This document shows positions 18,117 through 38,866 of a stretch of DNA of 64,000 nt, piece by piece. The stretch's first letter is position 1; every line of letters starts with the position of its first letter. The translations under genes and the position numbers were made by a program. This DNA comes from Tubiluchus corallicola (Eukaryota; Animalia; Priapulida). The stretch covers positions 78,948 to 142,947 of the forward strand of contig JAQGDQ010000555.1 in the NCBI GenBank assembly GCA_030141605.1. Direction: 5' to 3'. Under the pieces are notes generated by a model that saw only the letters and a list, made by a program, of their open reading frames with translations, searched no databases and was not told where the DNA came from.

Positions 18117-18234
18117 CATCCGACACTTAGGACACTAAGTTCAACTTTTTCTTTAGTTTTCTTTTTATTTATTTTTTTTCCTTTGAAACAGATTTTAATA
18201 TTTTATTTTAATGTGTTTGTTTGTTTGTTTCTAG

Positions 18235-18315
18235 AGACTAGCTGGAGCTACTCTCTTAGTATTTGCAAATAAACAGGATTTACCTGGTGCATTGACTGGT
18301 GATAATCTCAGACAG
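18235..18315 (+). CDS. ARL2: ARL2 coding exon 4 (NKQD)
   Basis: RLAGATLLVFANKQDLPGALTGDNLRQ; ctag/gtgagt boundaries. Confidence 0.96.
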
Positions 18316-19757: not shown

Positions 19758-19829
19758 GGAGATAATCTACTTCATGGTGTTAACTGGATTATTGATGACA
19801 TTTCTTCAAGGATATTTACCATGGACTGA
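19695..19829 (+). CDS. ARL2: ARL2 coding exon 5 (total 184 aa)
   Basis: [44 protein letters not shown]; exons sum to 555 nt. A donor GTGAGT at 19835 suggests a 3' UTR intron. Confidence 0.95.
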
Positions 19830-20589
19830 ATGAGGTGAGTGTTGAATCTTCATTTTCATGTTCTTATGTATTATTGCTTTTACATTATTCCATGATTTAT
19901 GTCATTTGGCAGGCACTTATGAAGATGTGAACTGATTTATGATCTGCCACCATATGACACATGTGCTGCCATCTATAGTATATTTATTTATAAAACAGGA
20001 AATAAGATGTTGATATTTTGATGGTATATTACTCTTGTGACTGTTAGTCTGTGACTACTGTTTGTTAGTGAATTATAGGAAAACAACAACTACATCCTTT
20101 GTGTTTATTTAGTTGGTTATTAAGCAGAAGGAAAGGCATTTCCAATTAATATTTGAGTTTTCCTCGAAACAGCTACTGTAACAGCGAAATCCTTGTTCTT
20201 TGATCAATTCCGCCCTTGTAAACTAAGGTATTTTGTTAAGTTTTTACGCATAAATCTTAAGCTGGTGAATTAACACCAGCTGGAATGCAATGCTTTGTGC
20301 TTTCAGTGCATGTTCATTTTCATCATAACTCTCTGTGCACTGGTCTCTTCTCTTGTCTACTGCAGTAGTGAGCAAATCAACAGATCTCTGTTTTTCCGTT
20401 TTCCGACTTTCTATACGATTAATTCCCGATTCAGTGCTAGCTTGTAGATTCAATCAGTTTTTGTTAGATGAGTCTTGACAGTCTGCACCACTGGTTACAT
20501 TTGCAGACCAGGGAGCAGTCAGGTCATCTGACTCAGATGTGTACTGGCTTGAATAAGTACACAGCTATGTCGTTTAGTTTCTACTGAAA

Positions 20590-20672
20590 CCTGATCTGTT
20601 GTTTCTACTGTAACAAGATCTGTTGTTTCTATTGTAACATGATCTGTTGTTTCTACTGTAACCTGATCTGTT
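20590..20672. repeat. 24-bp short tandem repeat, about 3.5 copies
   Basis: GATCTGTTGTTTCTACTGTAAC repeated. Confidence 0.8.
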
Positions 20673-23600
20673 GGGGGAGTTTCAGAAGCTGGTAACAAAG
20701 TTAGTGTTTCGGTCTTCAGTTGACGCAGGTCCTAGGAGAGAAGCTAACAAAAACAAGGGCATTACACACATAATGTAAATATAACAAAAATGAGAGCAAT
20801 ATATGCAAGTATACGCCCATAGTAGAGAAAATCTTACAATAAATGAGGACATTACAAGATTAAAACAAGAATATTTCGAATAAAAGCAGTTATTAATTTA
20901 AAAAATTAAAAATGCTTCATGAAAACGAAAGACAATTGTAGAAACAAGTTTGCATCATCATGTGTACTTGCAAATAATTCTTCAGGGTTCTTGTAAGTAA
21001 AATTTTACTACTATGTAAAAAAGTAATAACTGTATGGATAACATCTCTTTTTAGTGATCATGATTCTACTGGAGGTTTTATTATCTTCATCTCTTAAACA
21101 CTATGCTTTTATATAAAAAAATTACATAACGTCAAGATAAAAGACAAAGTGAAAACTGTTGTTTAATTCTTTTTTTATTTACATACCATGTTTAGATTCG
21201 AAATACAAATTAGCATTGTCAGTCATTGTTGATATCAAAGTTTAATACTGTAGACTTGTACAGTAATGTTTGCACTTTGACAAAGATGACCAAAACAAGA
21301 CTCATAATGCAGGCTAGCATCACAAAAATTGATATGTTCAAGCTATTTAATCAAACAAATTATAAAAAACATTTACTGTAAATGATTAACGTTCTTGAGC
21401 GTTTTTAAGAATAAAACACCCATAAGTTATTATTTCCCAAATTTGTTATTTAATGCTAACAATGCCGATAATAATTATCCGTTTCAATAAAGAACAAAAG
21501 TTCCAATCAGATCTTATTCAAACTCATCTATCTTATTAGTCTGTTCGCCAATTTCGACTAGATAATAATACACGTTTTGGTTTCAGATTATAATGAAATC
21601 ATATGTCGCATTTTATCAACTTCAAACTTGCTTAGTTTTAAGAAACATTTAGCAATTATTAGAAACAGTTTAGCAGTTATATTAAACAGATAATTAAATC
21701 AACAATTAACGAAAATAGCAGTTTTAAACTGAAATAATAGTAACAGTACTTTACATTGAATTAAAAAATCATTACAATATATACAATATATACAAAAATG
21801 TTTACCAAGCTTTACCTTAAAAAGAAAGTAATACAAATTTCAATTTAAGTGCTGTATGACAGTAATGAATACATACCTATTTAGCGACATACAACTCATG
21901 TGAAAAACTGCAACCTGCGCATGCGTAGATTCAGTCAAAATGTCAAACTAAACGTGTAAATCTAGAACAATCAAATTCATTACAAAACCGAATAAACAGC
22001 AAATGAAATAAACGAGACATTGAACTATTATGTTGTATAATTAACACTTGCAAAGGTTGTCAAATTTCAATCTCACAGACTGCTTTGCATATTTAACTTA
22101 GGATCTCATCAAAAGAAAAACAACACAAAAATGTTCCACCCTAAGATATGTAAAAACAGCTGGCACTTTTGCTAATTTAGAAAAGCGCCCCATGCAAAAT
22201 TAAACATAAATGTTTAAGTTTATCGGTTCATATACTACAATTTTAAATTTGTAACTAGGTATTGTTAATGATCTAGTTATCAATGGAATCAATGTTCAAA
22301 CGTCAGTTACATACATCGATAACGATCAGTAGCGGCTCGTAGCTAAAATTAGTGGGGGTGCTGCAAAATTAAAATTTTTAGCCATTGTGTTAATACACTG
22401 TAAAACAAAACAAACATGTGTAATTATAATGTTGTAATTGTAATTTTAAACAAACGGACTAATTTGAAGATAACTTTGATAAACTCTTAAACAAAAAAAT
22501 GTTTTCTTACTAATAGGCTAAATTGCCTCAGCTTATTTAATGTTGTAATTGTATTTTTAAACAAACGAACTAATTTAAACATAATCTTAATTAAACTCTT
22601 AAACAAGAAATACTATTTTCTGACTACACGGTTCTAAAGCAGGTGACAATTGACAACACGTACTGCAATGAGCGACAGTACTCTTTCTACCTAAAGTACA
22701 GCGTCTTATCTCAGACATTCGCATGACCGCATGCGCACAGGAGCCATACAGCACATTGCTTTAGCTGTGAAGCAATAATCAAAAGTAATGAGTGAAAATG
22801 AGGTACAGCAGTACCTATATACGAGCCGTACTAATATGGACATGAAAAACAGATCAAATAATAATTACAATATGATACATTCCAATTTTCCAATTCTTTT
22901 CCCCGTTTCCTTCATCGTTTTTTCTTTAGACGATTCTACTTTATCGCTACAATGAACAGAGGACAATCAAACCAAGATACTTCAAGCATCGAACAATATT
23001 TACATAGCATATTTTTATAGTCAAAAGCACACAATTTGAAAATAAAAGTCCTAAAACCCTTTCTTACCATTACAACATTTACAATTCAAAGTGCTTTACA
23101 AATACAAGATCAAAAACCAAGTTTATAAAAAGGCAGCTTAATCACAACTTAGTGACTTGTATTGACCAACAAGAGGACAAATACAGAGTGAGCCACGTAA
23201 AATGGCAACAAAAAATCCCCTAGCCATATTGCATTTGACTTACACTTGCTAGTGTTTCTCGCGCAATACGTTATTACATAATGCAACGTATTTCTCACAT
23301 TGTTTGTTAAACTAAGGTAAACATAGAAATAAACTAACTAGCAAAAACTAACATTGTAACACACCACGTAAAGTATTAATTACTCTAACGTGTACATTAA
23401 TGGTGCAAATAGGTATAGCAATTTTCAAAAATTAATGACATTTTTTACAAAACTACACGATAGTGTTGCCACACATTCATTCGTGTCATAGATTCTGACA
23501 CTTCATAGATCATAAGAATCTCTGCATTAAAGGCAAGCGGTAACCAGTTATTACCATACGTCATTGGGTTTCGGAACTTAACTGGACCATTCATATAGCA

Positions 23601-24149
23601 CCCCCATAGCCTAGTTGTTAGTTGGCTATTTCGTTATTTTGCTAGTCATAATCCAACAGTTTTGTTACATTTCTGTTAAGCTGCAAACAGAAAGAAGCAT
23701 ATTCCAATAGACAATATTTACATAGCGTATTTACGTTCGTGTGACTAATAAGCTTTTATGACATTTATATCATCTTAGTTCGCTTTTGTCACATAATATA
23801 CATAGAAACAATAATGTTAAGTACCGTTTTGCATGTAAGCAGGAACGTTTGTCATACGCTAATACGCTAGCCTAATGGTTTGCTTTAGTAGAAGTTCTGG
23901 CTCACTTTTCCAGGAAGTTTAATCAGTTGCTTGCTTGCTGTTATGCCAGGGATGCAGGTACAGTACAGCAAGTACGTCACGATAGCAAGCGAGAGTTTGC
24001 AGACGAAACCACATGCCGGGAGTACGGTCACCACTAACAGTTCAAGCACATTGTATGAACAACACTGTATGCCCACACTGTATCTCTACACTAGGCAGAA
24101 GAGCTACACAAGCAGCCAACAGCTAGAGGGCAGAGGTCAAGTGACCCAA

Positions 24150-24425
24150 CGGCCATGTGTAGAGGAGTAAATCTTCCAAATCAGGAGTGGAGCCCCGAAG
24201 GCGAACCAGTGCAGCATGCTCAATGACTCCAGCAGCTCCTGCAGCCAACCTGGTGCCAAACGTATCGCTCGGCTTTCCTTTGGACTACACCAGGGAGTAA
24301 GAGAGGGGGTTCCTGTTGTCTGGGCAACTCAGGATCTCCATACACCTTGCCCAGGCGTGCGCCCCGGAGACGTACTGCTCAGCCACAGTCGATGCTGCAA
24401 CTCCATCAATGTGATCAGTAACTGA
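24150..24425 (-). mobile_element. Possible RTE-clade LINE 5' UTR / SINE-like fragment
   Basis: GC-rich island; minus-strand GTCCAAAGGAAAGCCGAGCGATACGTTTGGCACCAG resembles RTE/BovB-type 5' sequence from memory, not searched. Confidence 0.4.
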
Positions 24426-25783
24426 CTCTCTTGGTGCGAGAGAGAGAGAGAGGGGGGGGGGGGGAGGGGAGAGATCACTTTAGTATAAGCTCCTTACCTA
24501 TATTGTCCCTTTGCGTTATAAGGAAAAGCAAATCCTATTTGCTTTGTTCAGCGATTTCTGCAAGTCCAATTTGGAACCACTTCAAAAAATGAGCCATTCT
24601 TCATCTTTCTCCAGGTAACTTAAAGCATGTCACAAGCTAGACTTGTGCAGAAAATCTGTGAATCCTCAAGCAAGCTCTCGGATCTTTCCACAACAATTTT
24701 ATTTGTCCGTTGTTGACTATTATTTCACTACCTCGTGCATCCAGCGATTTAATGTAATTAAAATAAATAGTGAAGAGTAAGAATCACCAACTGTCTAAAT
24801 GGCTAGTCTACTTAAGCCCAGGAAAGTAATTAGTTTCTGTTAGATCATTAAATTTTGCAGCACCTTAAGCTGGTCCGTCTAATAAGTAATTACTAAACAG
24901 GTCAGCAACTGAAGAATGAAAAGGTCAGCAAGTCGAAAATTAGATGATTGTAGCAGCAAAAAACAGCAGAGGAAACAATTAGAAAATTAAAGGTTTGACA
25001 GTTTAAGATACTTCCTTGATTTTCTAGGCATACATTGAAATTCTTGATTAGCGATCTTTAAGGTATAGTAGATGCAAACTATGACGAAGTGTTTCACAAG
25101 GTAGCGCACACCGTCAAGCAGAATCTTATATTTTGACATGTGGCATTTGATATTTTATTTTCCTTAATAATGTGAGCGACAGTACTCTGTGCAGCACAGT
25201 ATTGGTCAAATGTAGCTCTAACGTGATTTTCCGCCTGACTAGACCACGTTATGGAGTGGTTGTTGGCACACACAATCGCGTGTCATCATTGTGAAAAGAT
25301 TTCAATGAGATGTATAAATTTTCATTTTCATGAATCTTGGACTCAATTGCAGCAGTAAATAGTTTATCAAATTTAATATTTACAAGATGGATATTTTACA
25401 GTTTAATGTATAATCGTCAGAAAAACACTTACTTATTTCTTGCCTTCTTCATAAAGACTGCTGTCCTCTCTGGCGTTATTGCAAAAGATGTTGCCTTATT
25501 GGAGGAAAATGCTGTTGCCATATACGATGTGGCTCATGATGCTCTTGTTGTCTGGGTCACTTATGTTGTTGTTTATGTTTATGTCTTTGTCGTTGCTGTT
25601 GTACATTTATTATTCCTCCTATTTGTATTTTTACACGTAAACAAGCCGCATTTAATGAACATTTATTTTGACCTAAGCCTAACTGCATCATAAAAAATTG
25701 GGCTAAATGCAAGTGACGTCTGCACATGATATATAAGACTAATGTATGATTATATGGCGATATAATTGATATAATTATAATAT

Positions 25784-26848
25784 TTGTATGTCAGAATAGC
25801 TACCTCCTATATTTTTGTTCTTCTAAACCATGAGGTTGTATGTCAGAATGGCTGTCTTCTACATTTTAGTTCTTCTAAACCACGAGGTTGTATGTCAGAA
25901 TGGCTACCTTCTACATTTTAGTTCTTCTAAACCATGAGGTTGTATGTCAGAATGGCTGTCTTCTACATTTAGTTCTTCTAAACCACGAGGTTGTATGTCA
26001 GAATGGCTACCTTCTACATTTTAGTTCTTCTAAACCATGAGGTTGTATGTCAGAATGGCTACCTCCTATATTTTTGTTCTTCTAAACCACGAGGTTGTAT
26101 GTCAGAATGGCTGTCTTCTACATTTTAGTTCTTCTAAACCACGAGGTTGTATGTCAGAATGGCTACCTTCTACATTTTAGTTCTTCTGAACCATGAGGTT
26201 GTATGTCAGAATGGCTGTCTTCTACATTTTAGTTCTTCTAAACCACGAGGCTGTATGTCAGAATGGCTACCTTCTACATTTTAGTTCTTCTAAACCACGA
26301 GGTTGTATGTCAGAATGGCTGTCTTCTACATTTTAGTTCTTCTAAACCATGAGGTTGTATGTCAGAATGGCTGTCTTCTACATTTTAGTTCTTCTAAACC
26401 ACGAGGTTGTATGTCAGAATGGCTACCTTCTACATTTTAGTTCTTCAAAACCACGAGGTTGTATGTCAGAATGGCTATCTTCTACATTTTAGTTCTTCTA
26501 AACCACGAGGTTGTGTGTCAGAATGGCTGTCTTCTACATTTTAGTTCTGCTAAACCACGAGGTTGTGTGTCAGAATGGCTACCTTCTACACTTTAGTTCT
26601 TCAAAACCACGAGGTTGTATGTCAGAATGGCTGTCTTCTACATTTTAGTTCTTCTAAACCACGAGGTTGTATGTCAGAATGGCTACCTTCTACATTTTAG
26701 TTCTTCAAAACCACGAGGTTGTATGTCAGAATGGCTATCTTCTACATTTTAGTTCTTCTAAACCACGAGGTTGTGTGTCAGAATGGCTGTCTTCTACATT
26801 TTAGTTCTGCTAAACCACGAGGTTGTGTGTCAGAATGGCTACCTTCTA
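25784..26848. repeat. 52-bp satellite array (about 20 units), target of the insertions
   Basis: Unit CTTCTACATTTTAGTTCTTCTAAACCACGAGGTTGTATGTCAGAATGGCTAC; ends at CTTCTA abutting the LINE tail. Confidence 0.97.
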
Positions 26849-26987
26849 TTTTATTATTATTTATTTATTGACCATGGTCAAAGATATATACAAAAAGTCA
26901 TAAGAATCGTTTCGAGATAGTTGCAACATTTAAGAAATTTGGGCTGATCATAGTCCATAGATCACTCAATGTATGGTGTAGTAACAA

Positions 26988-28487
26988 TTAGAGACCAAAA
27001 ATGGCTAGAGCATCGTGTACAAAATTACAAATATCAGCGGGATTTCCGCTGAAGAAAGTCACTAAATCATCAAATATTAAATCGGAATTGTTTCTTAAGA
27101 TACGTGTTTCAGGGCATTCACATATTACGTGCAGTTCTGTTTGGATTTGTCCACATGAACAGAGTCTTCGCTCTCTTTCAATACGGGACCAACGACCAGT
27201 TTCTATGGCAAGGTTGTGTGAGGAAAGTCTGAGCCTTGACGTTTTTATCCGTTTCAGTTCATTAACATTGTCACAGTAAATTCGATGGATAGAGAGTTCA
27301 GGGTTTAGTTGTAAGTATGTGACAAATTTCGTACGGTCAGAAGCGCGGGTCCTATCTTTGATTCTATTCAGGTCATCATCGATAAAATCACCACGGTATC
27401 CAGTTATATTACGCAAATATCGAGCACATGGGGTGTTTGACTCGCGACACAAATTGTAAACAATCATAAACGGATCATCAGGAATATTCACTCTTGAGCG
27501 AACACTCTTATTGAAAAAGCGAGATTGGGTGTCCTTCACAAAACCATTCAGGGAGGGAAGGCCCAACTCTATGAGACACAAATCATTAGCAGTTGTACGT
27601 CGCACACCGAGTAAACATTTGATAACACTAATATACATCCCTTGAATAGGATTAAGGTCATTGAATAGCCAAGACTCACATCCGTAAGTAATTGCAGCAA
27701 GTAGCGCGGCATTTAAAACTAACTTCTTAACTGCGAAAGGATAAGCTGAATTCTTAGAAATAAATGACACGAACTTCAGTACGTGACAATATTTGTCTTC
27801 GCAGTGTTTTTCCAGAGCGGGTTTAAATTTTCCTGTTGAGCTAAAGACAGCACCGAGGTAAACGTAATAGTCACAGTGATTAACAGTAAGGGGGTTCACT
27901 ACGAGGTCCAGACGATCAACAGCATCGCCATTAATAACCATAAATTTAGTCTTTTTTAAGTTCACCTTCATACCGGATTGATCACAGAACTCAATAAGGA
28001 TACTGAGTTTTTGAATAATACCTTCTCTAGATGTTGACAATAAGATTGTATCATCCATCAACATCAAACAGTGTAAATTTCCTAGGAAACCATCGAGACC
28101 ACATCGAGACTTTAATTCACGAATAAGAGGGTTAATATACAGTGTGAAGAGGAAACAGGATGACGGAGAACCCTGCTTCACACCTAATGTAACACCAATA
28201 ACGGCAGCACCAAGGACCAGCTGCGTATTCACATACATGGCAGCAAGAGCAGAAAGCATCACAAGACGACAGCCAAGAGCTCTCAAGGCCCTAATCAAAC
28301 CAGAACGTGGAACTCTATCGTAAGCTTTCGAGAAGTCTACGAAAACGATATATAATTTCCTCTTTTTAAACAGTGCATAGTCCATTAATAGTCTTAGAGT
28401 CACAATCCACTCAATGCAGGATCTACCCTTTTGGGCGCCAGCCTGCTCCCTATCGGGTTTGAACCACATCTCTAAACGAAAAAACAA
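26988..28487 (-). CDS. 5'-truncated non-LTR reverse transcriptase (RTEX/Proto2-like, tentative), copy 1
   Basis: EQAG, FVDFSKAYD, GVKQGSPSS, LMDD, and C-terminal RLSSH.L.IE.GR...C.C...H....C. No endonuclease; begins inside the RT domain. Confidence 0.9.
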   Translation of the reverse strand: MFFRLEMWFKPDREQAGAQKGRSCIEWIVTLRLLMDYALFKKRKLYIVFVDFSKAYDRVPRSGLIRALRALGCRLVMLSALAAMYVNTQLVLGAAVIGVTLGVKQGSPSSCFLFTLYINPLIRELKSRCGLDGFLGNLHCLMLMDDTILLSTSREGIIQKLSILIEFCDQSGMKVNLKKTKFMVINGDAVDRLDLVVNPLTVNHCDYYVYLGAVFSSTGKFKPALEKHCEDKYCHVLKFVSFISKNSAYPFAVKKLVLNAALLAAITYGCESWLFNDLNPIQGMYISVIKCLLGVRRTTANDLCLIELGLPSLNGFVKDTQSRFFNKSVRSRVNIPDDPFMIVYNLCRESNTPCARYLRNITGYRGDFIDDDLNRIKDRTRASDRTKFVTYLQLNPELSIHRIYCDNVNELKRIKTSRLRLSSHNLAIETGRWSRIERERRLCSCGQIQTELHVICECPETRILRNNSDLIFDDLVTFFSGNPADICNFVHDALAIFGL

Positions 28488-28507
28488 GTTATAGTGTTTT
28501 GATATAA

Positions 28508-30019
28508 TTATAGTTCATCTTCTGATCTTTTGGCACATTCTTTCATTTCTATACTTTCTCCTTGAACTGCGTTTTTGTTTTTAATCTTGAATCTGATCAA
28601 CTTGTACCCAATCCAAATGAGCAAAGAATTCACCTCAATACACGTGATTACCGTCATTAGCCATAGCCAATCTTTCGCAGAAGAGTAATCTTCATACCAG
28701 GCTAATGGTTCCATTTCGTGGTGAGAAATAAGTAGTGCATGAGTTTTGTTAATTAAAGCATTTATCTCGTCGGTATAAGTAGTTAGATTATGGCTCTCCA
28801 ATTTAGGTATCCAACTTTTCACCCGGTGGAGAGAATCACTACATTTGAGAAAATATCCAGGGAGATGATACTCATTAGCTTTCTTGCATGTTAGCACAAG
28901 ACTAGTGTTCTTGGGAATAATCTTTTCTGATGCTCCTGTATATCTTGATACTGTTCTTAATGAATAACTAGCCTGTCTTTGAACTAGCCACCCACCCATT
29001 AATGTAACTACTCCCCAACTTTCTGGCGACCTTTCATATTTGATAGATTGGTCAAACGGTTGGGTTTCCAAATAAGTTGGGCATACAATTACATTAAGAT
29101 CTTGGCAAGATCCAGGAGGAATAATTTTAATTTCATTTATTCCCAAAATCATGTTGAATGCGTTTCCGTGGACAACCCAAGTTCCTCCTTTGACGATTGG
29201 CACATTCTGTGTCTTTACATGTACTTTGCCAGGCACTTGGATGATTTCTCTGACATTGATTAACATCCACAGTCTTCGTGGCTCAGATTTAATGACTATA
29301 GCCCGGCTAGCTCCATAGGATAGCGGGATGCTGTTCTTTTGGTCAGACATGAGAGAATGAAACTGGGTGGGACTGATCAGTAGGGGGTCTATTTTTGAAG
29401 AGGTGATAGATTGTAGGCCATGTCCATATCGGATAGAATTTAAATAGTCGTGAAGTTTCTTCATGTCGTTAGCGTGTGCCATCATCAGGTTATGTACATT
29501 AGCATCTAACTTGCCAACAATTCTCTCTAACTCTTCTAGATCGTGGCCTAGGATACCTATTTCTTTATTAGCTATTTCCAGTTCATGTGCTATTATCCCT
29601 TGATTGTTTCTTAATTCCCCCATTTTCTTATTTAATGAATTTATTTCTGCCCTGTTTGTAGCGCCTAAGGCTAAAGCAGCAGTCGCCTCTGCCATAGCTG
29701 CGCTGGACATAATTAATCCGAGAAATCGTTTTTTCCTGTTATTATGGGTTGAAGAATTATCTTTTTCTCGAAACTGAAAGAGATCGTAATGAATATTCCA
29801 GGCCCGGGACATATCGACTCTAACAACTTTGAAAGATTGTGCCACTTGATACCCAATGGGTTTTGGTTCTGTAATTATAATGCCATAAGACGCCAAGGCA
29901 TCTTGATGTTTGTAGATTATATCTTGCGATAATTGTGGAATAATACTATTTACACTTATTATGGTTCCATAAGTAACAGCTGAAAGAACAAGAAGGATTG
30001 AAAGAGTATAATGACCCAT
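28508..30019 (-). CDS. Endogenous viral class I fusion glycoprotein (paramyxo/pneumovirus F-like), copy 1
   Basis: Signal peptide, furin site RKKR followed by FLGLIMSSAAMAEATAALALG fusion peptide, long heptad repeat, Cys-containing region, membrane-proximal helix, TM segment, cytoplasmic tail; intronless. Confidence 0.88.
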   Translation of the reverse strand: MGHYTLSILLVLSAVTYGTIISVNSIIPQLSQDIIYKHQDALASYGIIITEPKPIGYQVAQSFKVVRVDMSRAWNIHYDLFQFREKDNSSTHNNRKKRFLGLIMSSAAMAEATAALALGATNRAEINSLNKKMGELRNNQGIIAHELEIANKEIGILGHDLEELERIVGKLDANVHNLMMAHANDMKKLHDYLNSIRYGHGLQSITSSKIDPLLISPTQFHSLMSDQKNSIPLSYGASRAIVIKSEPRRLWMLINVREIIQVPGKVHVKTQNVPIVKGGTWVVHGNAFNMILGINEIKIIPPGSCQDLNVIVCPTYLETQPFDQSIKYERSPESWGVVTLMGGWLVQRQASYSLRTVSRYTGASEKIIPKNTSLVLTCKKANEYHLPGYFLKCSDSLHRVKSWIPKLESHNLTTYTDEINALINKTHALLISHHEMEPLAWYEDYSSAKDWLWLMTVITCIEVNSLLIWIGYKLIRFKIKNKNAVQGESIEMKECAKRSEDEL

Positions 30020-30024
30020 TTTGA

Positions 30025-30548
30025 CTTCTACATTTTAGTTCTTCAAAACCACGAGGTTGTATGTCAGAATGGCTATCTTCTACATTTTAGTTCTTCTAAA
30101 CCACGAGGTTGTATGTCAGAATGGCTACCTCCTATATTTTTGTTCTTCAAAACCATGAGGTTGTATGTCAGAATGGCTACCTTCTACATTTTAGTTCTTC
30201 TAAACCACGAGGTTGTATGTCAGAATGGCTATCTTCTACATTTTAGTTCTTCTAAACCACGAGGTTGTATGTCAGAATGGCTATCTTCTACATTTTAGTT
30301 CTTCTAAACCACGAGGTTGTATGTCAGAATGGCTCTTCTACATTTTAGTTCTGCTAAACCACGAGGTTGTATGTCAGAATGGCTATCTTCTACATTTTAG
30401 TTCTTCAAAACCACGAGGTTGTATGTCAGAATGGCTATCTTCTACATTTTAGTTCTTCTAAACCACGAGGTTGTGTGTCAGAATGGCTGTCTTCTACATT
30501 TTAGTTCTGCTAAACCACGAGGTTGTGTGTCAGAATGGCTACCTTCTA
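30025..30548. repeat. 52-bp satellite spacer (10 units + 6 bp)
   Basis: 524 bp = 10x52 + 6 - 2 (one unit has a 2-bp deletion). Confidence 0.96.
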
Positions 30549-30687
30549 TTTTATTATTATTTATTTATTGACCATGGTCAAAGATATATACAAAAAGTCA
30601 TAAGAATCGTTTCGAGATAGTTGCAACATTTAAGAAATTTGGGCTGATCATAGTCCATAGATCACTCAATGTATGGTGTAGTAACAA

Positions 30688-32187
30688 TTAGAGACCAAAA
30701 ATGGCTAGAGCATCGTGTACAAAATTACAAATATCAGCGGGATTTCCGCTGAAGAAAGTCACTAAATCATCAAATATTAAATCGGAATTGTTTCTTAAGA
30801 TACGTGTTTCAGGGCATTCACATATTACGTGCAGTTCTGTTTGGATTTGTCCACATGAACAGAGTCTTCGCTCTCTTTCAATACGGGACCAACGACCGGT
30901 TTCTATGGCAAGGTTGTGTGAGGAAAGTCTGAGCCTTGACGTTTTTATCCGTTTCAGTTCATTAACATTGTCACAGTAAATTCGATGGATAGAGAGTTCA
31001 GGGTTTAGTTGTAAGTATGTGACAAATTTCGTACGGTCAGAAGCGCGGGTCCTATCTTTGATTCTATTCAGGTCATCATCGATAAAATCACCACGGTATC
31101 CAGTTATATTACGCAAATATCGAGCACATGGGGTGTTTGACTCGCGACACAAATTGTAAACAATCATAAACGGATCATCAGGAATATTCACTCTTGAGCG
31201 AACAATCTTATTGAAAAAGCGAGATTGGGTGTCCTTCACAAAACCATTCAGGGAGGAAAGGCCCAACTCTATGAGACACAAATCATTAGCAGTTGTACGT
31301 CGCACACCGAGTAAACATTTGATAACACTAATATACATCCCTTGAATAGGATTAAGGTCATTGAATAGCCAAGACTCACATCCGTAAGTAATTGCAGCAA
31401 GTAGCGCGGCATTTAAAACTAACTTCTTAACTGCGAAAGGATAAGCTGAATTCTTAGAAATAAATGACACGAACTTCAGTACGTGACAATATTTGTCTTC
31501 GCAGTGTTTTTCCAGAGCGGGTTTAAATTTTCCTGTTGAGCTAAAGACAGCACCGAGGTAAACGTAATAGTCACAGTGATTAACAGTAAGGGGGTTCACT
31601 ACGAGGTCCAGACGATCAACAGCATCGCCATTAATAACCATAAATTTAGTCTTTTTTAAGTTCACCTTCATACCGGATTGATCACAGAACTCAATAAGGA
31701 TACTGAGTTTTTGAATAATACCTTCTCTAGATGTTGACAATAAGATTGTATCATCCATCAACATCAAACAGTGTAAATTTCCTAGGAAACCATCGAGACC
31801 ACATCTAGACTTTAATTCACGAATAAGAGGGTTAATATACAGTGTGAAGAGGAAACAGGATGACGGAGAACCCTGCTTCACACCTAATGTAACACCAATA
31901 ACGGCAGCACCAAGGACCAGCTGCGTATTCACATACATGGCAGCAAGAGCAGAAAGCATCACAAGACGACAGCCAAGAGCTCTCAAGGCCCTAATCAAAC
32001 CAGAACGTGGAACTCTATCGTAAGCTTTCGAGAAGTCTACGAAAACGATATATAATTTCCTCTTTTTAAACAGTGCATAGTCCATTAATAGTCTTAGAGT
32101 CACAATCCACTCAATGCAGGATCTACCCTTTTGGGCGCCAGCCTGCTCCCTATCGGGTTTGAACCACATCTCTAAACGAAAAAACAA
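30688..32187 (-). CDS. Truncated non-LTR RT, copy 2
   Basis: Offset 3700 bp from copy 1; differs by 2 aa. Confidence 0.9.
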   Translation of the reverse strand: MFFRLEMWFKPDREQAGAQKGRSCIEWIVTLRLLMDYALFKKRKLYIVFVDFSKAYDRVPRSGLIRALRALGCRLVMLSALAAMYVNTQLVLGAAVIGVTLGVKQGSPSSCFLFTLYINPLIRELKSRCGLDGFLGNLHCLMLMDDTILLSTSREGIIQKLSILIEFCDQSGMKVNLKKTKFMVINGDAVDRLDLVVNPLTVNHCDYYVYLGAVFSSTGKFKPALEKHCEDKYCHVLKFVSFISKNSAYPFAVKKLVLNAALLAAITYGCESWLFNDLNPIQGMYISVIKCLLGVRRTTANDLCLIELGLSSLNGFVKDTQSRFFNKIVRSRVNIPDDPFMIVYNLCRESNTPCARYLRNITGYRGDFIDDDLNRIKDRTRASDRTKFVTYLQLNPELSIHRIYCDNVNELKRIKTSRLRLSSHNLAIETGRWSRIERERRLCSCGQIQTELHVICECPETRILRNNSDLIFDDLVTFFSGNPADICNFVHDALAIFGL

Positions 32188-32207
32188 GTTATAGTGTTTT
32201 GATATAA

Positions 32208-33719
32208 TTATAGTTCATCTTCTGATCTTTTGGCACATTCTTTCATTTCTATACTTTCTCCTTGAACTGCGTTTTTGTTTTTAATCTTGAATCTGATCAA
32301 CTTGTACCCAATCCAAATGAGCAAAGAATTCACCTCAATACACGTGATTACCGTCATTAGCCATAGCCAATCTTTCGCAGAAGAGTAATCTTCATACCAG
32401 GCTAATGGTTCCATTTCGTGGTGAGAAATAAGTAGTGCATGAGTTTTGTTAATTAAAGCATTTATCTCGTCGGTATAAGTAGTTAGATTATGGCTCTCCA
32501 ATTTAGGTATCCAACTTTTCACCCGGTGGAGAGAATCACTACATTTGAGAAAATATCCAGGGAGATGATACTCATTAGCTTTCTTGCATGTTAGCACAAG
32601 ACTAGTGTTCTTGGGAATAATCTTTTCTGATGCTCCTGTATATCTTGATACTGTTCTTAATGAATAACTAGCCTGTCTTTGAACTAGCCACCCACCCATT
32701 AATGTAACTACTCCCCAACTTTCTGGCGACCTTTCATATTTGATAGATTGGTCAAACGGTTGGGTTTCCAAATAAGTTGGGCATACAATTACATTAAGAT
32801 CTTGGCAAGATCCAGGAGGAATAATTTTAATTTCATTTATTCCCAAAATCATGTTGAATGCGTTTCCGTGGACAACCCAAGTTCCTCCTTTGACGATTGG
32901 CACATTCTGTGTCTTTACATGTACTTTGCCAGGCACTTGGATGATTTCTCTGACATTGATTAACATCCACAGTCTTCGTGGCTCAGATTTAATGACTATA
33001 GCCCGGCTAGCTCCATAGGATAGCGGGATGCTGTTCTTTTGGTCAGACATGAGAGAATGAAACTGGGTGGGACTGATCAGTAGGGGGTCTATTTTTGAAG
33101 AGGTGATAGATTGTAGGCCATGTCCATATCGGATAGAATTTAAATAGTCGTGAAGTTTCTTCATGTCGTTAGCGTGTGCCATCATCAGGTTATGTACATT
33201 AGCATCTAACTTGCCAACAATTCTCTCTAACTCTTCTAGATCGTGGCCTAGGATACCTATTTCTTTATTAGCTATTTCCAGTTCATGTGCTATTATCCCT
33301 TGATTGTTTCTTAATTCCCCCATTTTCTTATTTAATGAATTTATTTCTGCCCTGTTTGTAGCGCCTAAGGCTAAAGCAGCAGTCGCCTCTGCCATAGCTG
33401 CGCTGGACATAATTAATCCGAGAAATCGTTTTTTCCTGTTATTATGGGTTGAAGAATTATCTTTTTCTCGAAACTGAAAGAGATCGTAATGAATATTCCA
33501 GGCCCGGGACATATCGACTCTAACAACTTTGAAAGATTGTGCCACTTGATACCCAATGGGTTTTGGTTCTGTAATTATAATGCCATAAGACGCCAAGGCA
33601 TCTTGATGTTTGTAGATTATATCTTGCGATAATTGTGGAATAATACTATTTACACTTATTATGGTTCCATAAGTAACAGCTGAAAGAACAAGAAGGATTG
33701 AAAGAGTATAATGACCCAT
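32208..33719 (-). CDS. Viral F-like glycoprotein, copy 2
   Basis: Same protein as copy 1. Confidence 0.88.
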   Translation of the reverse strand: MGHYTLSILLVLSAVTYGTIISVNSIIPQLSQDIIYKHQDALASYGIIITEPKPIGYQVAQSFKVVRVDMSRAWNIHYDLFQFREKDNSSTHNNRKKRFLGLIMSSAAMAEATAALALGATNRAEINSLNKKMGELRNNQGIIAHELEIANKEIGILGHDLEELERIVGKLDANVHNLMMAHANDMKKLHDYLNSIRYGHGLQSITSSKIDPLLISPTQFHSLMSDQKNSIPLSYGASRAIVIKSEPRRLWMLINVREIIQVPGKVHVKTQNVPIVKGGTWVVHGNAFNMILGINEIKIIPPGSCQDLNVIVCPTYLETQPFDQSIKYERSPESWGVVTLMGGWLVQRQASYSLRTVSRYTGASEKIIPKNTSLVLTCKKANEYHLPGYFLKCSDSLHRVKSWIPKLESHNLTTYTDEINALINKTHALLISHHEMEPLAWYEDYSSAKDWLWLMTVITCIEVNSLLIWIGYKLIRFKIKNKNAVQGESIEMKECAKRSEDEL

Positions 33720-33724
33720 TTTGA

Positions 33725-34248
33725 CTTCTACATTTTAGTTCTTCAAAACCACGAGGTTGTATGTCAGAATGGCTATCTTCTACATTTTAGTTCTTCTAAA
33801 CCACGAGGTTGTATGTCAGAATGGCTACCTCCTATATTTTTGTTCTTCAAAACCATGAGGTTGTATGTCAGAATGGCTACCTTCTACATTTTAGTTCTTC
33901 TAAACCACGAGGTTGTATGTCAGAATGGCTATCTTCTACATTTTAGTTCTTCTAAACCACGAGGTTGTATGTCAGAATGGCTATCTTCTACATTTTAGTT
34001 CTTCTAAACCACGAGGTTGTATGTCAGAATGGCTCTTCTACATTTTAGTTCTGCTAAACCACGAGGTTGTATGTCAGAATGGCTATCTTCTACATTTTAG
34101 TTCTTCAAAACCACGAGGTTGTATGTCAGAATGGCTATCTTCTACATTTTAGTTCTTCTAAACCACGAGGTTGTGTGTCAGAATGGCTGTCTTCTACATT
34201 TTAGTTCTGCTAAACCACGAGGTTGTGTGTCAGAATGGCTACCTTCTA
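33725..34248. repeat. 52-bp satellite spacer (10 units + 6 bp)
   Basis: Same unit-variant pattern as 30025-30548. Confidence 0.96.
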
Positions 34249-34387
34249 TTTTATTATTATTTATTTATTGACCATGGTCAAAGATATATACAAAAAGTCA
34301 TAAGAATCGTTTCGAGATAGCTGCAACATTTAAGAAATTTGGGCTGATCATAGTCCATAGATCACTCAATGTATGGTGTAGTAACAA

Positions 34388-35887
34388 TTAGAGACCAAAA
34401 ATGGCTAGAGCATCGTGTACAAAATTACAAATATCAGCGGGATTTCCGCTGAAGAAAGTCACTAAATCATCAAATATTAAATCGGAATTGTTTCTTAAGA
34501 TACGTGTTTCAGGGCATTCACATATTACGTGCAGTTCTGTTTGGATTTGTCCACATGAACAGAGTCTTCGCTCTCTTTCAATACGGGACCAACGACCGGT
34601 TTCTATGGCAAGGTTGTGTGAGGAAAGTCTGAGCCTTGACGTTTTTATCCGTTTCAGTTCATTAACATTGTCACAGTAAATTCGATGGATAGAGAGTTCA
34701 GGGTTTAGTTGTAAGTATGTGACAAATTTCGTACGGTCAGAAGCGCGGGTCCTATCTTTGATTCTATTCAGGTCATCATCGATAAAATCACCACGGTATC
34801 CAGTTATATTACGCAAATATCGAGCACATGGGGTGTTTGACTCGCGACACAAATTGTAAACAATCATAAACGGATCATCAGGAATATTCACTCTTGAGCG
34901 AACAATCTTATTGAAAAAGCGAGATTGGGTGTCCTTCACAAAACCATTCAGGGAGGGAAGGCCCAACTCTATGAGACACAAATCATTAGCAGTTGTACGT
35001 CGCACACCGAGTAAACATTTGATAACACTAATATACATCCCTTGAATAGGATTAAGGTCATTGAATAGCCAAGACTCACATCCGTAAGTAATTGCAGCAA
35101 GTAGCGCGGCATTTAAAACTAACTTCTTAACTGCGAAAGGATAAGCTGAATTCTTAGAAATAAATGACACGAACTTCAGTACGTGACAATATTTGTCTTC
35201 GCAGTGTTTTTCCAGAGCGGGTTTAAATTTTCCTGTTGAGCTAAAGACAGCACCGAGGTAAACGTAATAGTCACAGTGATTAACAGTAAGGGGGTTCACT
35301 ACGAGGTCCAGACGATCAACAGCATCGCCATTAATAACCATAAATTTAGTCTTTTTTAAGTTCACCTTCATACCGGATTGATCACAGAACTCAATAAGGA
35401 TACTGAGTTTTTGAATAATACCTTCTCTAGATGTTGACAATAAGATTGTATCATCCATCAACATCAAACAGTGTAAATTTCCTAGGAAACCATCGAGACC
35501 ACATCTAGACTTTAATTCACGAATAAGAGGGTTAATATACAGTGTGAAGAGGAAACAGGATGACGGAGAACCCTGCTTCACACCTAATGTAACACCAATA
35601 ACGGCAGCACCAAGGACCAGCTGCGTATTCACATACATGGCAGCAAGAGCAGAAAGCATCACAAGACGACAGCCAAGAGCTCTCAAGGCCCTAATCAAAC
35701 CAGAACGTGGAACTCTATCGTAAGCTTTCGAGAAGTCTACGAAAACGATATATAATTTCCTCTTTTTAAACAGTGCATAGTCCATTAATAGTCTTAGAGT
35801 CACAATCCACTCAATGCAGGATCTACCCTTTTGGGCGCCAGCCTGCTCCCTATCGGGTTTGAACCACATCTCTAAACGAAAAAACAA
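34388..35887 (-). CDS. Truncated non-LTR RT, copy 3
   Basis: Offset 7400 bp from copy 1. Confidence 0.9.
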   Translation of the reverse strand: MFFRLEMWFKPDREQAGAQKGRSCIEWIVTLRLLMDYALFKKRKLYIVFVDFSKAYDRVPRSGLIRALRALGCRLVMLSALAAMYVNTQLVLGAAVIGVTLGVKQGSPSSCFLFTLYINPLIRELKSRCGLDGFLGNLHCLMLMDDTILLSTSREGIIQKLSILIEFCDQSGMKVNLKKTKFMVINGDAVDRLDLVVNPLTVNHCDYYVYLGAVFSSTGKFKPALEKHCEDKYCHVLKFVSFISKNSAYPFAVKKLVLNAALLAAITYGCESWLFNDLNPIQGMYISVIKCLLGVRRTTANDLCLIELGLPSLNGFVKDTQSRFFNKIVRSRVNIPDDPFMIVYNLCRESNTPCARYLRNITGYRGDFIDDDLNRIKDRTRASDRTKFVTYLQLNPELSIHRIYCDNVNELKRIKTSRLRLSSHNLAIETGRWSRIERERRLCSCGQIQTELHVICECPETRILRNNSDLIFDDLVTFFSGNPADICNFVHDALAIFGL

Positions 35888-35907
35888 GTTATAGTGTTTT
35901 GATATAA

Positions 35908-37419
35908 TTATAGTTCATCTTCTGATCTTTTGGCACATTCTTTCATTTCTATACTTTCTCCTTGAACTGCGTTTTTGTTTTTAATCTTGAATCTGATCAA
36001 CTTGTACCCAATCCAAATGAGCAAAGAATTCACCTCAATACACGTGATTACCGTCATTAGCCATAGCCAATCTTTCGCAGAAGAGTAATCTTCATACCAG
36101 GCTAATGGTTCCATTTCGTGGTGAGAAATAAGTAGTGCATGAGTTTTGTTAATTAAAGCATTTATCTCGTCGGTATAAGTAGTTAGATTATGGCTCTCCA
36201 ATTTAGGTATCCAACTTTTCACCCGGTGGAGAGAATCACTACATTTGAGAAAATATCCAGGGAGATGATACTCATTAGCTTTCTTGCATGTTAGCACAAG
36301 ACTAGTGTTCTTGGGAATAATCTTTTCTGATGCTCCTGTATATCTTGATACTGTTCTTAATGAATAACTAGCCTGTCTTTGAACTAGCCACCCACCCATT
36401 AATGTAACTACTCCCCAACTTTCTGGCGACCTTTCATATTTGATAGATTGGTCAAACGGTTGGGTTTCCAAATAAGTTGGGCATACAATTACATTAAGAT
36501 CTTGGCAAGATCCAGGAGGAATAATTTTAATTTCATTTATTCCCAAAATCATGTTGAATGCGTTTCCGTGGACAACCCAAGTTCCTCCTTTGACGATTGG
36601 CACATTCTGTGTCTTTACATGTACTTTGCCAGGCACTTGGATGATTTCTCTGACATTGATTAACATCCACAGTCTTCGTGGCTCAGATTTAATGACTATA
36701 GCCCGGCTAGCTCCATAGGATAGCGGGATGCTGTTCTTTTGGTCAGACATGAGAGAATGAAACTGGGTGGGACTGATCAGTAGGGGGTCTATTTTTGAAG
36801 AGGTGATAGATTGTAGGCCATGTCCATATCGGATAGAATTTAAATAGTCGTGAAGTTTCTTCATGTCGTTAGCGTGTGCCATCATCAGGTTATGTACATT
36901 AGCATCTAACTTGCCAACAATTCTCTCTAACTCTTCTAGATCGTGGCCTAGGATACCTATTTCTTTATTAGCTATTTCCAGTTCATGTGCTATTATCCCT
37001 TGATTGTTTCTTAAGTCCCCCATTTTCTTATTTAATGAATTTATTTCTGCCCTGTTTGTAGCGCCTAAGGCTAAAGCAGCAGTCGCCTCTGCCATAGCTG
37101 CGCTGGACATAATTAATCCGAGAAATCGTTTTTTCCTGTTATTATGGGTTGAAGAATTATCTTTTTCTCGAAACTGAATGAGATCGTAATGAATATTCCA
37201 GGCCCGGGACATATCGACTCTAACAACTTTGAAAGATTGTGCCACTTGATACCCAATGGGTTTTGGTTCTGTAATTATAATGCCATAAGACGCCAAGGCA
37301 TCTTGATGTTTGTAGATTATATCTTGCGATAATTGTGGAATAATACTATTTACACTTATTATGGTTCCATAAGTAACAGCTGAAAGAACAAGAAGGATTG
37401 AAAGAGTATAATGACCCAT
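35908..37419 (-). CDS. Viral F-like glycoprotein, copy 3
   Basis: Two substitutions (F>I, E>D) relative to copies 1 and 2. Confidence 0.88.
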   Translation of the reverse strand: MGHYTLSILLVLSAVTYGTIISVNSIIPQLSQDIIYKHQDALASYGIIITEPKPIGYQVAQSFKVVRVDMSRAWNIHYDLIQFREKDNSSTHNNRKKRFLGLIMSSAAMAEATAALALGATNRAEINSLNKKMGDLRNNQGIIAHELEIANKEIGILGHDLEELERIVGKLDANVHNLMMAHANDMKKLHDYLNSIRYGHGLQSITSSKIDPLLISPTQFHSLMSDQKNSIPLSYGASRAIVIKSEPRRLWMLINVREIIQVPGKVHVKTQNVPIVKGGTWVVHGNAFNMILGINEIKIIPPGSCQDLNVIVCPTYLETQPFDQSIKYERSPESWGVVTLMGGWLVQRQASYSLRTVSRYTGASEKIIPKNTSLVLTCKKANEYHLPGYFLKCSDSLHRVKSWIPKLESHNLTTYTDEINALINKTHALLISHHEMEPLAWYEDYSSAKDWLWLMTVITCIEVNSLLIWIGYKLIRFKIKNKNAVQGESIEMKECAKRSEDEL

Positions 37420-37424
37420 TTTGA

Positions 37425-37792
37425 CTTCTACATTTTAGTTCTTCAAAACCACGAGGTTGTATGTCAGAATGGCTATCTTCTACATTTTAGTTCTTCTAAA
37501 CCACGAGGTTGTATGTCAGAATGGCTACCTCCTATATTTTTGTTCTTCAAAACCATGAGGTTGTATGTCAGAATGGCTACCTTCTACATTTTAGTTCTTC
37601 TAAACCACGAGGTTGTATGTCAGAATGGCTATCTTCTACATTTTAGTTCTTCTAAACCACGAGGTTGTATGTCAGAATGGCTATCTTCTACATTTTAGTT
37701 CTTCTAAACCACGAGGTTGTATGTCAGAATGGCTCTTCTACATTTTAGTTCTGCTAAACCACGAGGTTGTATGTCAGAATGGCTACCTTCTA
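37425..37792. repeat. 52-bp satellite spacer (7 units + 6 bp)
   Basis: 368 bp = 7x52 + 6 - 2; begins and ends with CTTCTA. Confidence 0.96.
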
Positions 37793-37798
37793 TGCAAT

Positions 37799-38866
37799 TT
37801 ATGCAATTTTGAAATTGGTCGTGGTTGTTTGGAATTCATCATCACTGTCTTCGATATACTTGTTTCCTACTGTGTGTCTGGTTACTTGATCCCTTTGAAA
37901 GTTTGCTCTTTCTATGGAGAGGTTTTCCATTGCCTGTCTTACATCTTCAGAGCCCTCATTTCTCGCCGCTGTAGCGGCTTCTCTTCTGATGATTTTTCCT
38001 AGCTGTTTCGCGAATTCGTCGATTGTTGGGGAAACATCAGGCTTTTTATATTGCCAAACACTGTATCGAGGGTCGTTTGTGTTATCCTTATCGGAAATGA
38101 TGTGCAATAATACTGTTGTGAGTACTCTGTTATTGTTAGTACTTATGTTGGTGAATGCATTTTGGTTAAAGTTTTTGGCGTACAAATAGGATTTGTCGGG
38201 TCTCCCAACACAAGTTTGCCAGAACCTTTGGAGCCGGAGCAACTCTTTTATAGTCCATGAGCACCCTATTTTCTTTAACAACTCATTTCTGTCCAGTTTT
38301 GTAGACTCTGTGGCTTGTGCTAACAATTGGGGAAGTGTAAGTGAGGCCCACGTTAGGTGTCTCATTACAGCAAAGTTTACATACCGATAGAGTTCTTCTC
38401 CCCGACCAGTTATCCTTCCGCTCCTTACACAAAGCCCAAACGTCATAAGCGCTGTTGCGCAGACCTCCGGACGTGAAAACACTGTATAGTAAGCATTCCA
38501 TAGTGACTCGTTGACTTTGAGTCCTAGTGGCCTATAATTCCACATCATTGAATTCTCAGTTTCTTCACTCAGTACTTTGTTTCTTACTTGTTTCGATTTG
38601 CCTGCCGCTCGAGTGAGAACCATTACAAGAAAACATATTGAGTCTAATTCCCATTCGTAGATGTCGGTAGCTGCCGTTTCAAAATAACTGTCGACTTTTT
38701 CCCACACCTCAATGATGTCGTTGGTCATGACATCTGGTGATCGTTGAGGAAGTTTAGATAGTTCATGGAGTAATTTGCCTGTGTCACCATCTGATCCGGA
38801 GGTTCCAGGCTCTAGATCTTCTCCCTTTGATCCAGCATTCAATTTGGCATAGCTGCCCAAAGTCAT
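37799..38866 (-). CDS. Endogenous Mononegavirales-like nucleoprotein (355 aa from the likely ATG at 38866)
   Basis: Intronless and helical-looking. SYLYAKNFNQNAFTNISTNNNRVL resembles the YA(R/K).F...F..L....N motif of rhabdovirus-like N proteins; acidic C-tail. The upstream in-frame extension to 39136 looks non-coding. Confidence 0.7.
   Translation of the reverse strand: MTLGSYAKLNAGSKGEDLEPGTSGSDGDTGKLLHELSKLPQRSPDVMTNDIIEVWEKVDSYFETAATDIYEWELDSICFLVMVLTRAAGKSKQVRNKVLSEETENSMMWNYRPLGLKVNESLWNAYYTVFSRPEVCATALMTFGLCVRSGRITGRGEELYRYVNFAVMRHLTWASLTLPQLLAQATESTKLDRNELLKKIGCSWTIKELLRLQRFWQTCVGRPDKSYLYAKNFNQNAFTNISTNNNRVLTTVLLHIISDKDNTNDPRYSVWQYKKPDVSPTIDEFAKQLGKIIRREAATAARNEGSEDVRQAMENLSIERANFQRDQVTRHTVGNKYIEDSDDEFQTTTTNFKIA

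What the first reader, a model, noticed from the sequence alone, without database searches (positions are those of the whole stretch)
26849..30024. Fusion-glycoprotein gene joined to a LINE RT inside one TSD: template-switch chimera or env-bearing LINE
Seen: the F stop is 20 nt upstream of the RT frame, F occupies the ORF1 position, and F starts only 5 nt (TCAAA) inside the insert. The RT lacks the endonuclease and the start of the RT domain, and its catalytic motif is LMDD. Known: env capture is described for LTR elements, while template-switch chimeras (U6-L1) are typical of LINEs. Inference: TPRT began on the LINE tail, copied about 1.6 kb, then jumped to a viral F mRNA. The chimera keeps the LINE 3' end, so it could be remobilised in trans as a non-autonomous F-carrying element.
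Basis: partly seen in the sequence, partly recalled or inferred. Interest (0 to 1): 0.85.

Follow-up and report, generated by a model that had tools for sequence, protein, structure and literature searches.

The report
Viral fusion gene welded to LINE
An intact gene for a predicted viral membrane-fusion protein is joined to the broken-off tail half of a jumping gene, in three tandem copies beside a nucleoprotein-like gene; it is likely a recent accident in which the jumping gene's enzyme copied RNAs of an unknown virus into an animal chromosome, and not a new kind of mobile element.

Summary
The anatomy is real. An intact 503-aa class-I-fusion-like ORF lies 29 nt upstream of the last 1,630 nt of an APE-type LINE, on the same strand, in three tandem copies 4-6 substitutions apart. 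Read contigs fix the switch point at 28478/28479: the parent LINE continues there as ordinary RT, and F-linked copies are a minority. Relatives have full endonuclease-RT ORF2s, and LMDD is the family norm (96 of 120). An env-bearing LINE family is therefore not supported.

An intact nucleoprotein-like ORF (Pfam Rhabdo_ncap_2, above cut-off) lies just beyond the next array. A 14-nt motif occurs only at each F stop and just past the far end of the left array. The event probably spans about 25766-38900, and the 6-bp 'TSD' inside a 52-bp array is weak evidence.

Best reading: LINE reverse transcription jumped onto RNAs of an undescribed negative-strand RNA virus, and unequal crossover then triplicated the unit. 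No sequence relative of F or N was found. Expression and remobilisation are untested.

The parts
28508..30019 (-). Class-I-fusion-like ORF, 503 aa (copy 1): hydrophobic N-terminus, RKKR at 95-98 followed by a hydrophobic stretch, heptad region about 119-201, C-terminal hydrophobic segment about 450-475, four N-glycan sequons
   Evidence: Pfam Fusion_gly E 0.0053, 15.5 bits, below cut-off 29.8; ESM Atlas top hit Fusion glycoprotein F0, score 0.97, recognition 1706 below the 2300 bar
28479..28507 (-). 29-nt spacer between F stop and LINE; no poly(A); ends in six T in mRNA sense
26849..28478 (-). 5'-truncated APE-type LINE: C-terminal half of ORF2 (RT with LMDD, stop at 26988-26990), then 139 nt of 3' UTR ending in an AAT/AAAT-repeat tail
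   Evidence: switch point from loose ends in runs X1 and X4
30549..33724 (-). Tandem copy 2 of F + LINE (4 substitutions from copy 1)
34249..37424 (-). Tandem copy 3 of F + LINE (6 substitutions from copy 1, 4 from copy 2)
25784..26848 (.). 52-bp minisatellite array A1, about 20.5 units
30025..30548 (.). Array A2, 10 units: 361-nt prefix shared with A4 plus 162-nt suffix shared with A1 (crossover product)
33725..34248 (.). Array A3, identical to A2
37425..37792 (.). Array A4, 7 units, between the F start of copy 3 and the N stop
37799..38866 (-). Nucleoprotein-like ORF, 355 aa, intact; its 3' end carries a 9-nt direct repeat and meets the array at the same phase as the LINE tails
   Evidence: Pfam Rhabdo_ncap_2 E 2.6e-06, 27.6 bits over cut-off 25, residues 158-256
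25766..25779 (-). 14-nt motif TATAATTATATCAA just past the far end of A1, identical to the sequence over each F stop (28499-28512, 32199-32212, 35899-35912); candidate shared viral gene-end signal

Best explanation
This is likely a young, single-locus endogenous viral element: a LINE reverse transcriptase likely copied 1,630 nt of its own RNA, likely jumped onto an RNA carrying the predicted fusion gene of an undescribed negative-strand RNA virus, and the joined unit, which stands in three tandem copies, was likely multiplied later by unequal crossover between the flanking 52-bp arrays. SHOWN: the junction at 28478/28479; that the parent LINE has ordinary RT there; same strand; one tail; intact F and N-like ORFs; hybrid middle arrays. 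INFERRED: target-primed reverse transcription with a template jump (ligation of the two RNAs first would look the same); a viral rather than retroelement donor; F and N from one virus. The N-like gene, the array and the 14-nt motif probably belong to the same event (about 0.6 given the rest). One reaction would then have moved among N RNA, LINE RNA and F RNA, and the 6-bp duplication would be an internal overlap, not the outer target site. The unit cannot move by itself. Its LINE tail would allow mobilisation in trans, but no dispersed copy was seen.
For: Loose ends behind 35878 (= 28478 in copy 1) in runs X1 and X4 read, by hand translation, as the residues that the closest homologs carry there (AKIYDRILCK in P0004 and P0005). 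Per-contig depth at the junction: F 878.7 of 3,149.3 in X1, and 31.2 of 154.6 in X2; LINE depth falls from the 3' end towards the junction, as in a 5'-truncating family. Close F contigs reach 30 and 29 letters into the LINE and 30 and 50 letters into the array without ending at the boundary (table 8). The LINE part differs from X4's main contigs at 8 of 1,655 letters, so the event is young. A2 = A3 = A4 prefix + A1 suffix with one base unexplained. The N-like ORF passes the Pfam cut-off. The 14-nt motif occurs 4 times in 64 kb (0.20 expected); 0 of 1,683 other 60-nt windows share 13 or more letters with the F end, and 1 of 2,000 shuffles reaches 14. Same-orientation 5'-RNA/3'-LINE chimeras and double jumps are described (10.1101/2025.02.02.635956 passages; PMC2104539 abstract).
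Against: No sequence relative of F was found, nor of N (Atlas 0.75), so the viral labels rest on features, one sub-threshold and one just-passing Pfam hit, and the Atlas. Both folds failed (pLDDT 33 and 35). X1 holds a 306-nt F-like contig with 40 differences at depth 1,373.6, higher than the close F, whose flanks I could not see; a multicopy genomic F family exists. F/N depth is 4.2-4.7 in sample S1 against 3 assembled copies. The contigs crossing the F-LINE join fall one and two letters short of the tool's 31-letter bar, and X1/X2 may be the source sample. The 14-nt motif was noticed after the fact and is AT-rich. The 52-bp unit weakly resembles another 52-bp array in the window (3 of 300 shuffles, 8 comparisons), which fits a host array.
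Confidence: 0.72

Rival explanations
1. The join is LINE-made, but F came from the env gene of a host LTR retroelement (errantivirus F-type), not from a free virus; the N-like gene is a separate insert.
For: F-type env genes are widespread in animal Ty3/gypsy elements (PMC13524379 passages; PMC5408684 passages). Atlas hits include 'Envelope protein', Baculo_F and Gypsy clusters at 0.97-0.93. A diverged F-like contig of high depth exists in X1.
Against: A donor transcribed this recently should still be in the genome nearly unchanged, yet close F contigs run unbranched into the array and the LINE. No gag, integrase or LTR is nearby. It leaves the adjacent N-like gene and the shared 14-nt motif unexplained.
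Confidence: 0.12
2. No RNA-level join: a 5'-truncated LINE inserted at the DNA level next to an F gene that was already endogenous.
For: The LINE family is multicopy and young. The region is rich in transposons and arrays. The 6-bp duplication is weak evidence.
Against: No duplication flanks the LINE alone: the left side ends CTTCTA and the right side begins with six A. It needs a chance hit 29 nt behind the F stop in the same orientation, plus loss of what followed F.
Confidence: 0.1
3. A mobile non-autonomous F-carrying LINE derivative, or an env-bearing LINE family, of which this is one copy.
For: The LINE 3' UTR and tail are kept, F is intact in all three copies, and F depth exceeds three times N depth in sample S1.
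Against: The parent continues as plain RT at the junction in two samples. 7 of 7 full-length relatives scanned have an endonuclease-RT ORF2. None of 120 RT homologs and none of 16 related loci has an F- or N-like match (those loci are short and decayed). Copies are tandem and share arrays rather than being dispersed.
Confidence: 0.05

Closest known systems
5'-RNA/3'-LINE chimeras (U6/L1 type; Magnaporthe MGL chimeras, including tripartite ones)
   Same: A non-LINE RNA copy fused in the same orientation to a 5'-truncated LINE 3' end with one tail.
   Different: The partner is a complete virus-like coding gene, not a cellular RNA. The L1 survey has 0 occurrences of 'viral' or 'virus' in its main text. 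The unit was later amplified in tandem.
LINE-1-made endogenous bornavirus-like and filovirus-like elements
   Same: Negative-strand-virus genes, N included, copied into the germ line by LINE enzymes (PMC3205384 and PMC2987831 passages).
   Different: Those are trans copies with poly(A) and TSD and no LINE sequence. Here the LINE itself is welded on and no poly(A) tract is seen. The same papers and PMC4231630 report no such marks in insect and isopod EVEs.
LCMV-IAP recombinants (Geuking 2009, read second-hand in PMC3205384)
   Same: A retroelement-virus hybrid cDNA is integrated as one piece.
   Different: IAP is an LTR element and no endogenous LCMV is reported. This one involves a non-LTR element and is present in two samples of separate studies.
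F-type env of Ty3/gypsy errantiviruses and bdelloid TelKA
   Same: Paramyxovirus-like F with furin site and fusion peptide next to a reverse transcriptase.
   Different: Those are multicopy autonomous LTR families with env after pol. Here F interrupts a LINE ORF2 at one locus.
Insect R1 LINEs with a viral SF1 helicase domain
   Same: A LINE that acquired RNA-virus coding sequence (PMC4686597 abstract start and passages).
   Different: That domain is fused in frame to an intact ORF2 of a living family. Here the LINE is crippled and F is a separate ORF.

Membership tests
5'-RNA/3'-LINE chimera | Non-LINE part fused to a 5'-truncated LINE, same strand, one 3' tail | tested here: met
5'-RNA/3'-LINE chimera | Parent LINE lacks the partner at that position | tested here: met
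   loose ends at 35878 in X1 and X4 continue as RT
5'-RNA/3'-LINE chimera | One target-site duplication around the whole insert | tested here: inconclusive
   6-bp CTTCTA present, and the two halves add up to a unit type found in A1, but inside a 52-bp array; no convincing outer duplication around the larger block
5'-RNA/3'-LINE chimera | Join made by template switch rather than RNA ligation | not testable with these tools
   both give same-orientation chimeras
env-bearing LINE family (hypothetical) | Intact endonuclease-RT ORF2 with F upstream | tested here: not met
   ORF2 starts at residue 503-558 of full-length relatives
env-bearing LINE family (hypothetical) | Dispersed copies with different flanks | tested here: not met
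   close F contigs in sample S1 run into the same array and LINE position; only contigs, no genome
Class I (paramyxovirus-type) fusion protein | Signal peptide, furin site + fusion peptide, heptad repeat, C-terminal membrane anchor | tested here: met
   Atlas
Class I (paramyxovirus-type) fusion protein | Pfam Fusion_gly gathering score | tested here: not met
   15.5 bits against 29.8
Class I (paramyxovirus-type) fusion protein | F-type three-dimensional fold | tested here: inconclusive
   single-sequence model pLDDT 33
Negative-strand RNA virus EVE | Nucleoprotein homology | tested here: met
   Rhabdo_ncap_2 27.6 bits over cut-off 25, 99 residues only; fold and Atlas gave nothing
Negative-strand RNA virus EVE | Shared gene-end signal at transcription units | tested here: inconclusive
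   14-nt motif at F stops and past A1; function not shown
Negative-strand RNA virus EVE | Placement by the polymerase gene | not testable with these tools
   no polymerase hit among the 9 large ORFs scanned; no genome held
Errantivirus env-F | LTRs and gag-pol-integrase linked to F | tested here: not met
   none at this locus; the context of the diverged F-like contig was not seen

The most novel reading that the evidence does not exclude
One LINE reverse-transcription reaction stitched together the nucleoprotein and fusion RNAs of an undescribed negative-strand RNA virus lineage that pairs a novirhabdovirus-type N with a class I F, with F as the last gene before the viral RNA end (the plus strand at 28476 reads ACG + six A, matching the 3'-UGC/U terminus described for VSV, and overlaps the LINE by 3 nt). 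The intact F-plus-LINE-tail unit is expanding in the host and is a ready starting point for a non-LTR element that carries a fusion gene.
Probability: 0.22. Interest if true: 0.8.

Novelty: new variant of a known kind. Interest (0 to 1): 0.56.

Why it matters
How RNA-virus genes enter invertebrate germ lines is mostly inferred: insect and isopod EVEs were reported without LINE marks (PMC2987831 and PMC4231630 passages). Here the responsible LINE is still attached at a base-resolved junction, which makes LINE-to-virus template jumping testable. The locus also preserves two intact genes with no sequence relative among 1.84 billion protein representatives (F) or in the word-seeded search (N), so it may mark an unsampled virus lineage. 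I found no paper describing a virus/LINE chimera of this form or an env-bearing LINE in nine full-text searches (listings and passages only, open-access library only). It does not, on present evidence, show a new mobile element.

Tried and rejected
No whole genome is held, so dispersed copies could only be judged from read contigs. F relatives: none in the word-seeded search, the HMMER search of 1.84 billion representatives, PDB sequences, viral contigs or metagenome contigs. These queries lacked the first Met. N relatives: none; Atlas best score 0.75. Single-sequence folds of F and N were unusable and their Foldseek hits are ignored. No RNA holder was listed: no evidence either way on expression. 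Run X5 covers neither the block nor most of its flanks, so it is uninformative. The 5' end of F is not covered in X4, which is also no evidence. A loose end at 39059 in X4 did not match the left flank, so no empty allele was identified. No Rfam match in 24000-41000. No convincing outer target-site duplication: the 8-mer ATTATATG at 25749 and 38993 is within chance. A4's right end matches A1's right end best, but ties with one other of 19 positions. LMDD as a sign of decay: rejected. The LINE clade could not be named: no names among cluster members, and solved-structure hits are generic R2 and L1. Earlier findings: none in three look-ups. The flanks of the diverged F-like contigs and of other LINE tails remain unseen.
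Full report
OBSERVATION. The insert 26849-30024 lies on the minus strand between arrays of a 52-bp unit and has CTTCTA at both ends. It holds a 503-aa ORF (ATG 30019, stop 28508-28510) that starts 5 nt inside the insert, a 29-nt spacer without poly(A), and 1,630 nt of LINE with a 139-nt 3' UTR ending in an AAT/AAAT tail. The unit occurs three times at a 3,700-bp period; the copies differ at 4, 6 and 4 of 3,176 positions and all ORFs are open. No other copy of F, N or this LINE lies in the window. The F frame (504 codons) and the N frame (418) far exceed the longest of 300 shuffles each (211 and 181).

THE LINE. The RT hits Pfam RVT_1 and has 461 homologs among 7,996 candidates, the best 70% identical. 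LMDD is the family motif: 96 of the 120 listed, xMDD 110 of 120. Seven full-length members of related clusters (1,002-1,060 aa) all have an N-terminal APE endonuclease hit, six above or near cut-off and one at E 0.0004 below it; the window's piece aligns from their residue 503-558. So F does not sit in the ORF1 position; it replaces the first half of ORF2. The clade could not be named from tool results.

THE SWITCH POINT. I laid contigs of four of six listed runs on copy 3 and its right flank. In X1 (sample S1) and X4 (another sample and study) contigs leave the window behind 35878, equal to 28478 in copy 1. Translated by hand, the loose letters give the residues that the two closest homologs carry just before RLExWF. 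The parent LINE therefore has no F there. Per-contig depth is a rough guide only: X1 has N 205, F 865-879 and LINE 3,149 near the junction; X2 has 6-7, 31 and 155; X4 has 10, 13-26 and 90-106. F-linked copies are thus about 28% and 20% of LINE depth at that point in S1, and LINE depth rises towards the 3' end. Close F contigs pass 30 and 29 letters into the LINE (just under the tool's 31-letter bar) and 30 and 50 letters into the array, so I see no second flank. X1 and X2 may be the source sample. X4 bridges the array-N join by 37 letters; its F-LINE join is not among the listed records (779 not shown). X4's main LINE contigs differ from the window at 8 of 1,655 letters, so the event is young. 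Against a tidy picture: X1 has a 306-nt F-like contig with 40 differences at depth 1,374 and a second diverged piece, and the F/N depth ratio in S1 is 4.2-4.7, not 3. The flanks of those diverged copies remain unseen.

IS IT A FUSION PROTEIN? It has a hydrophobic N-terminus, RKKR at 95-98 followed by a hydrophobic stretch, a heptad region with 71% hydrophobic a/d positions, four sequons and a C-terminal hydrophobic segment (numbering shifted by one for the Met). Pfam Fusion_gly matches residues 87-115 at E 0.0053, below cut-off. The ESM Atlas ranks Fusion glycoprotein F0 first (0.97, 223 of 256 features; recognition 1706, under the 2300 bar), with Baculo_F and Gypsy env clusters close behind. 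No cysteine lies before residue 305, unlike what I recall of paramyxovirus F2. No sequence relative was found and the fold failed. Class I fusion protein is likely; its family is open.

An intact 355-aa ORF (38866-37799, same strand) ends 6 nt before array A4 and scores 27.6 bits on Rhabdo_ncap_2, cut-off 25; other searches gave no support. Its end meets the array at the same phase and in the same 20-nt context as each LINE tail. The 14-mer TATAATTATATCAA occurs only over the three F stops and just past the far end of A1. None of 1,683 other 60-nt windows shares 13 letters with the F end, and 1 of 2,000 shuffles reaches 14; I noticed it after the fact, among about ten region pairs. It would fit a gene-end signal shared by two transcripts of one virus, which would make N, array and motif one transcript-derived block with F-LINE nested in it. 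The 6-bp duplication is consistent with an insertion, since its halves add up to a unit type present in A1, but any two cuts in a 52-bp array overlap by 0-51 bp. No convincing outer duplication was found. The array could also be of host type: the window has many 48-107-bp arrays and another 52-bp array resembles it weakly (3 of 300 shuffles, 8 comparisons).

MECHANISM. Shown: junction, orientation, parent structure, hybrid arrays (A2 = A3 = 361 nt of A4 + 162 nt of A1, one base unexplained). Inferred: target-primed reverse transcription that left the LINE RNA after 1,630 nt and continued on an F-bearing RNA. Non-LTR RTs jump between templates using non-templated 3' additions (PMC8857657 abstract). 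Same-strand chimeras arise by switching or by RNA ligation (10.1101/2025.02.02.635956 passages; PMC6789731 seen in a listing only), and double jumps are described (PMC2104539 abstract). Two independent inserts from one virus within 400 bp and in one orientation are unlikely without targeting, so I favour one multi-template reaction that included N (about 0.6 given the rest). The lack of poly(A) and the plus-strand reading ACG + six A at 28476 suggest a jump onto a viral RNA 3' end with a 3-nt overlap; VSV's terminus is 3'-UGC/UGCU (PMC6636387 passages). That idea is post hoc, about 0.3. Triplication by unequal crossover between arrays followed.

RIVALS. Errantivirus env as donor (0.12): such genes are common (PMC13524379 and PMC5408684 passages) and a diverged multicopy F exists, but no near-identical donor is seen and N is unexplained. 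DNA-level LINE insertion beside an older F (0.10): no duplication flanks the LINE alone. Mobile F-LINE family (0.05): the parent lacks F, and neither 120 RT homologs nor 16 short, decayed related loci show F or N.

COMPARISON AND NOVELTY. It works like a U6/L1-type chimera and like LINE-made bornavirus elements (PMC3205384 and PMC2987831 passages), and meets the testable chimera features except a clean TSD. It is not an env-bearing LINE. Retroelement-virus hybrids are known for an LTR element (LCMV-IAP, second-hand), and a viral helicase is known in R1 LINEs (PMC4686597 passages). Novirhabdo-like viruses and glycoprotein swaps occur in tunicates (10.1101/2024.12.15.628590 abstract and passages), and paramyxovirus EVEs in fish (PMC11521997 passages); the passages I saw show no N plus class I F pair like this one. 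Nine searches showed no virus/LINE chimera of this form; subscription papers are missing and I read no supplements, which may list such loci. Verdict: a new variant of a known kind, interest 0.56.

Noticed in passing
window 36337-36642 and 36959-37131 (copy 3 of F), run X1: Diverged F-like contigs: 40 differences in 306 nt at depth 1,374, and a second piece with a 406-nt skip; X4 shares two of the variant letters. Other F-related inserts exist in this organism.
   Followed up: no
window 46725-49993 (+) and 2648-4003 (-): A second LINE with PHD finger, APE endonuclease and RT in three frames, and an inverted partial copy 97% alike 45 kb away.
   Followed up: no
window 50946-52295 (+) and about 57900-58490 (+): C2H2 zinc-finger array genes; the second has an in-frame stop in a repeat.
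   Followed up: no
window 59213-60169 (-): Trypsin-like serine protease domain in one uninterrupted 318-codon frame (Pfam Trypsin E 2e-36).
   Followed up: no
window 60673-64000: A second 52-bp-period array of about 64 units with weak likeness to the array around the finding (3 of 300 shuffles).
   Followed up: partly
window 4998-5703, 13532-20673, 39121-39388: Dense minisatellites: (CAATTA)n and units of 48, 57, 60, 107, 53, 96, 24 and 104 bp.
   Followed up: no
window 38900-38975: Two near-identical copies of about 22 nt upstream of the N-like start, and a 9-nt direct repeat over its stop; possible marks of RT slippage.
   Followed up: no
P0004-P0123: A widespread LINE clade whose RT catalytic motif is mostly LMDD rather than YxDD (96 of 120), with no names in the sources.
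   Followed up: partly
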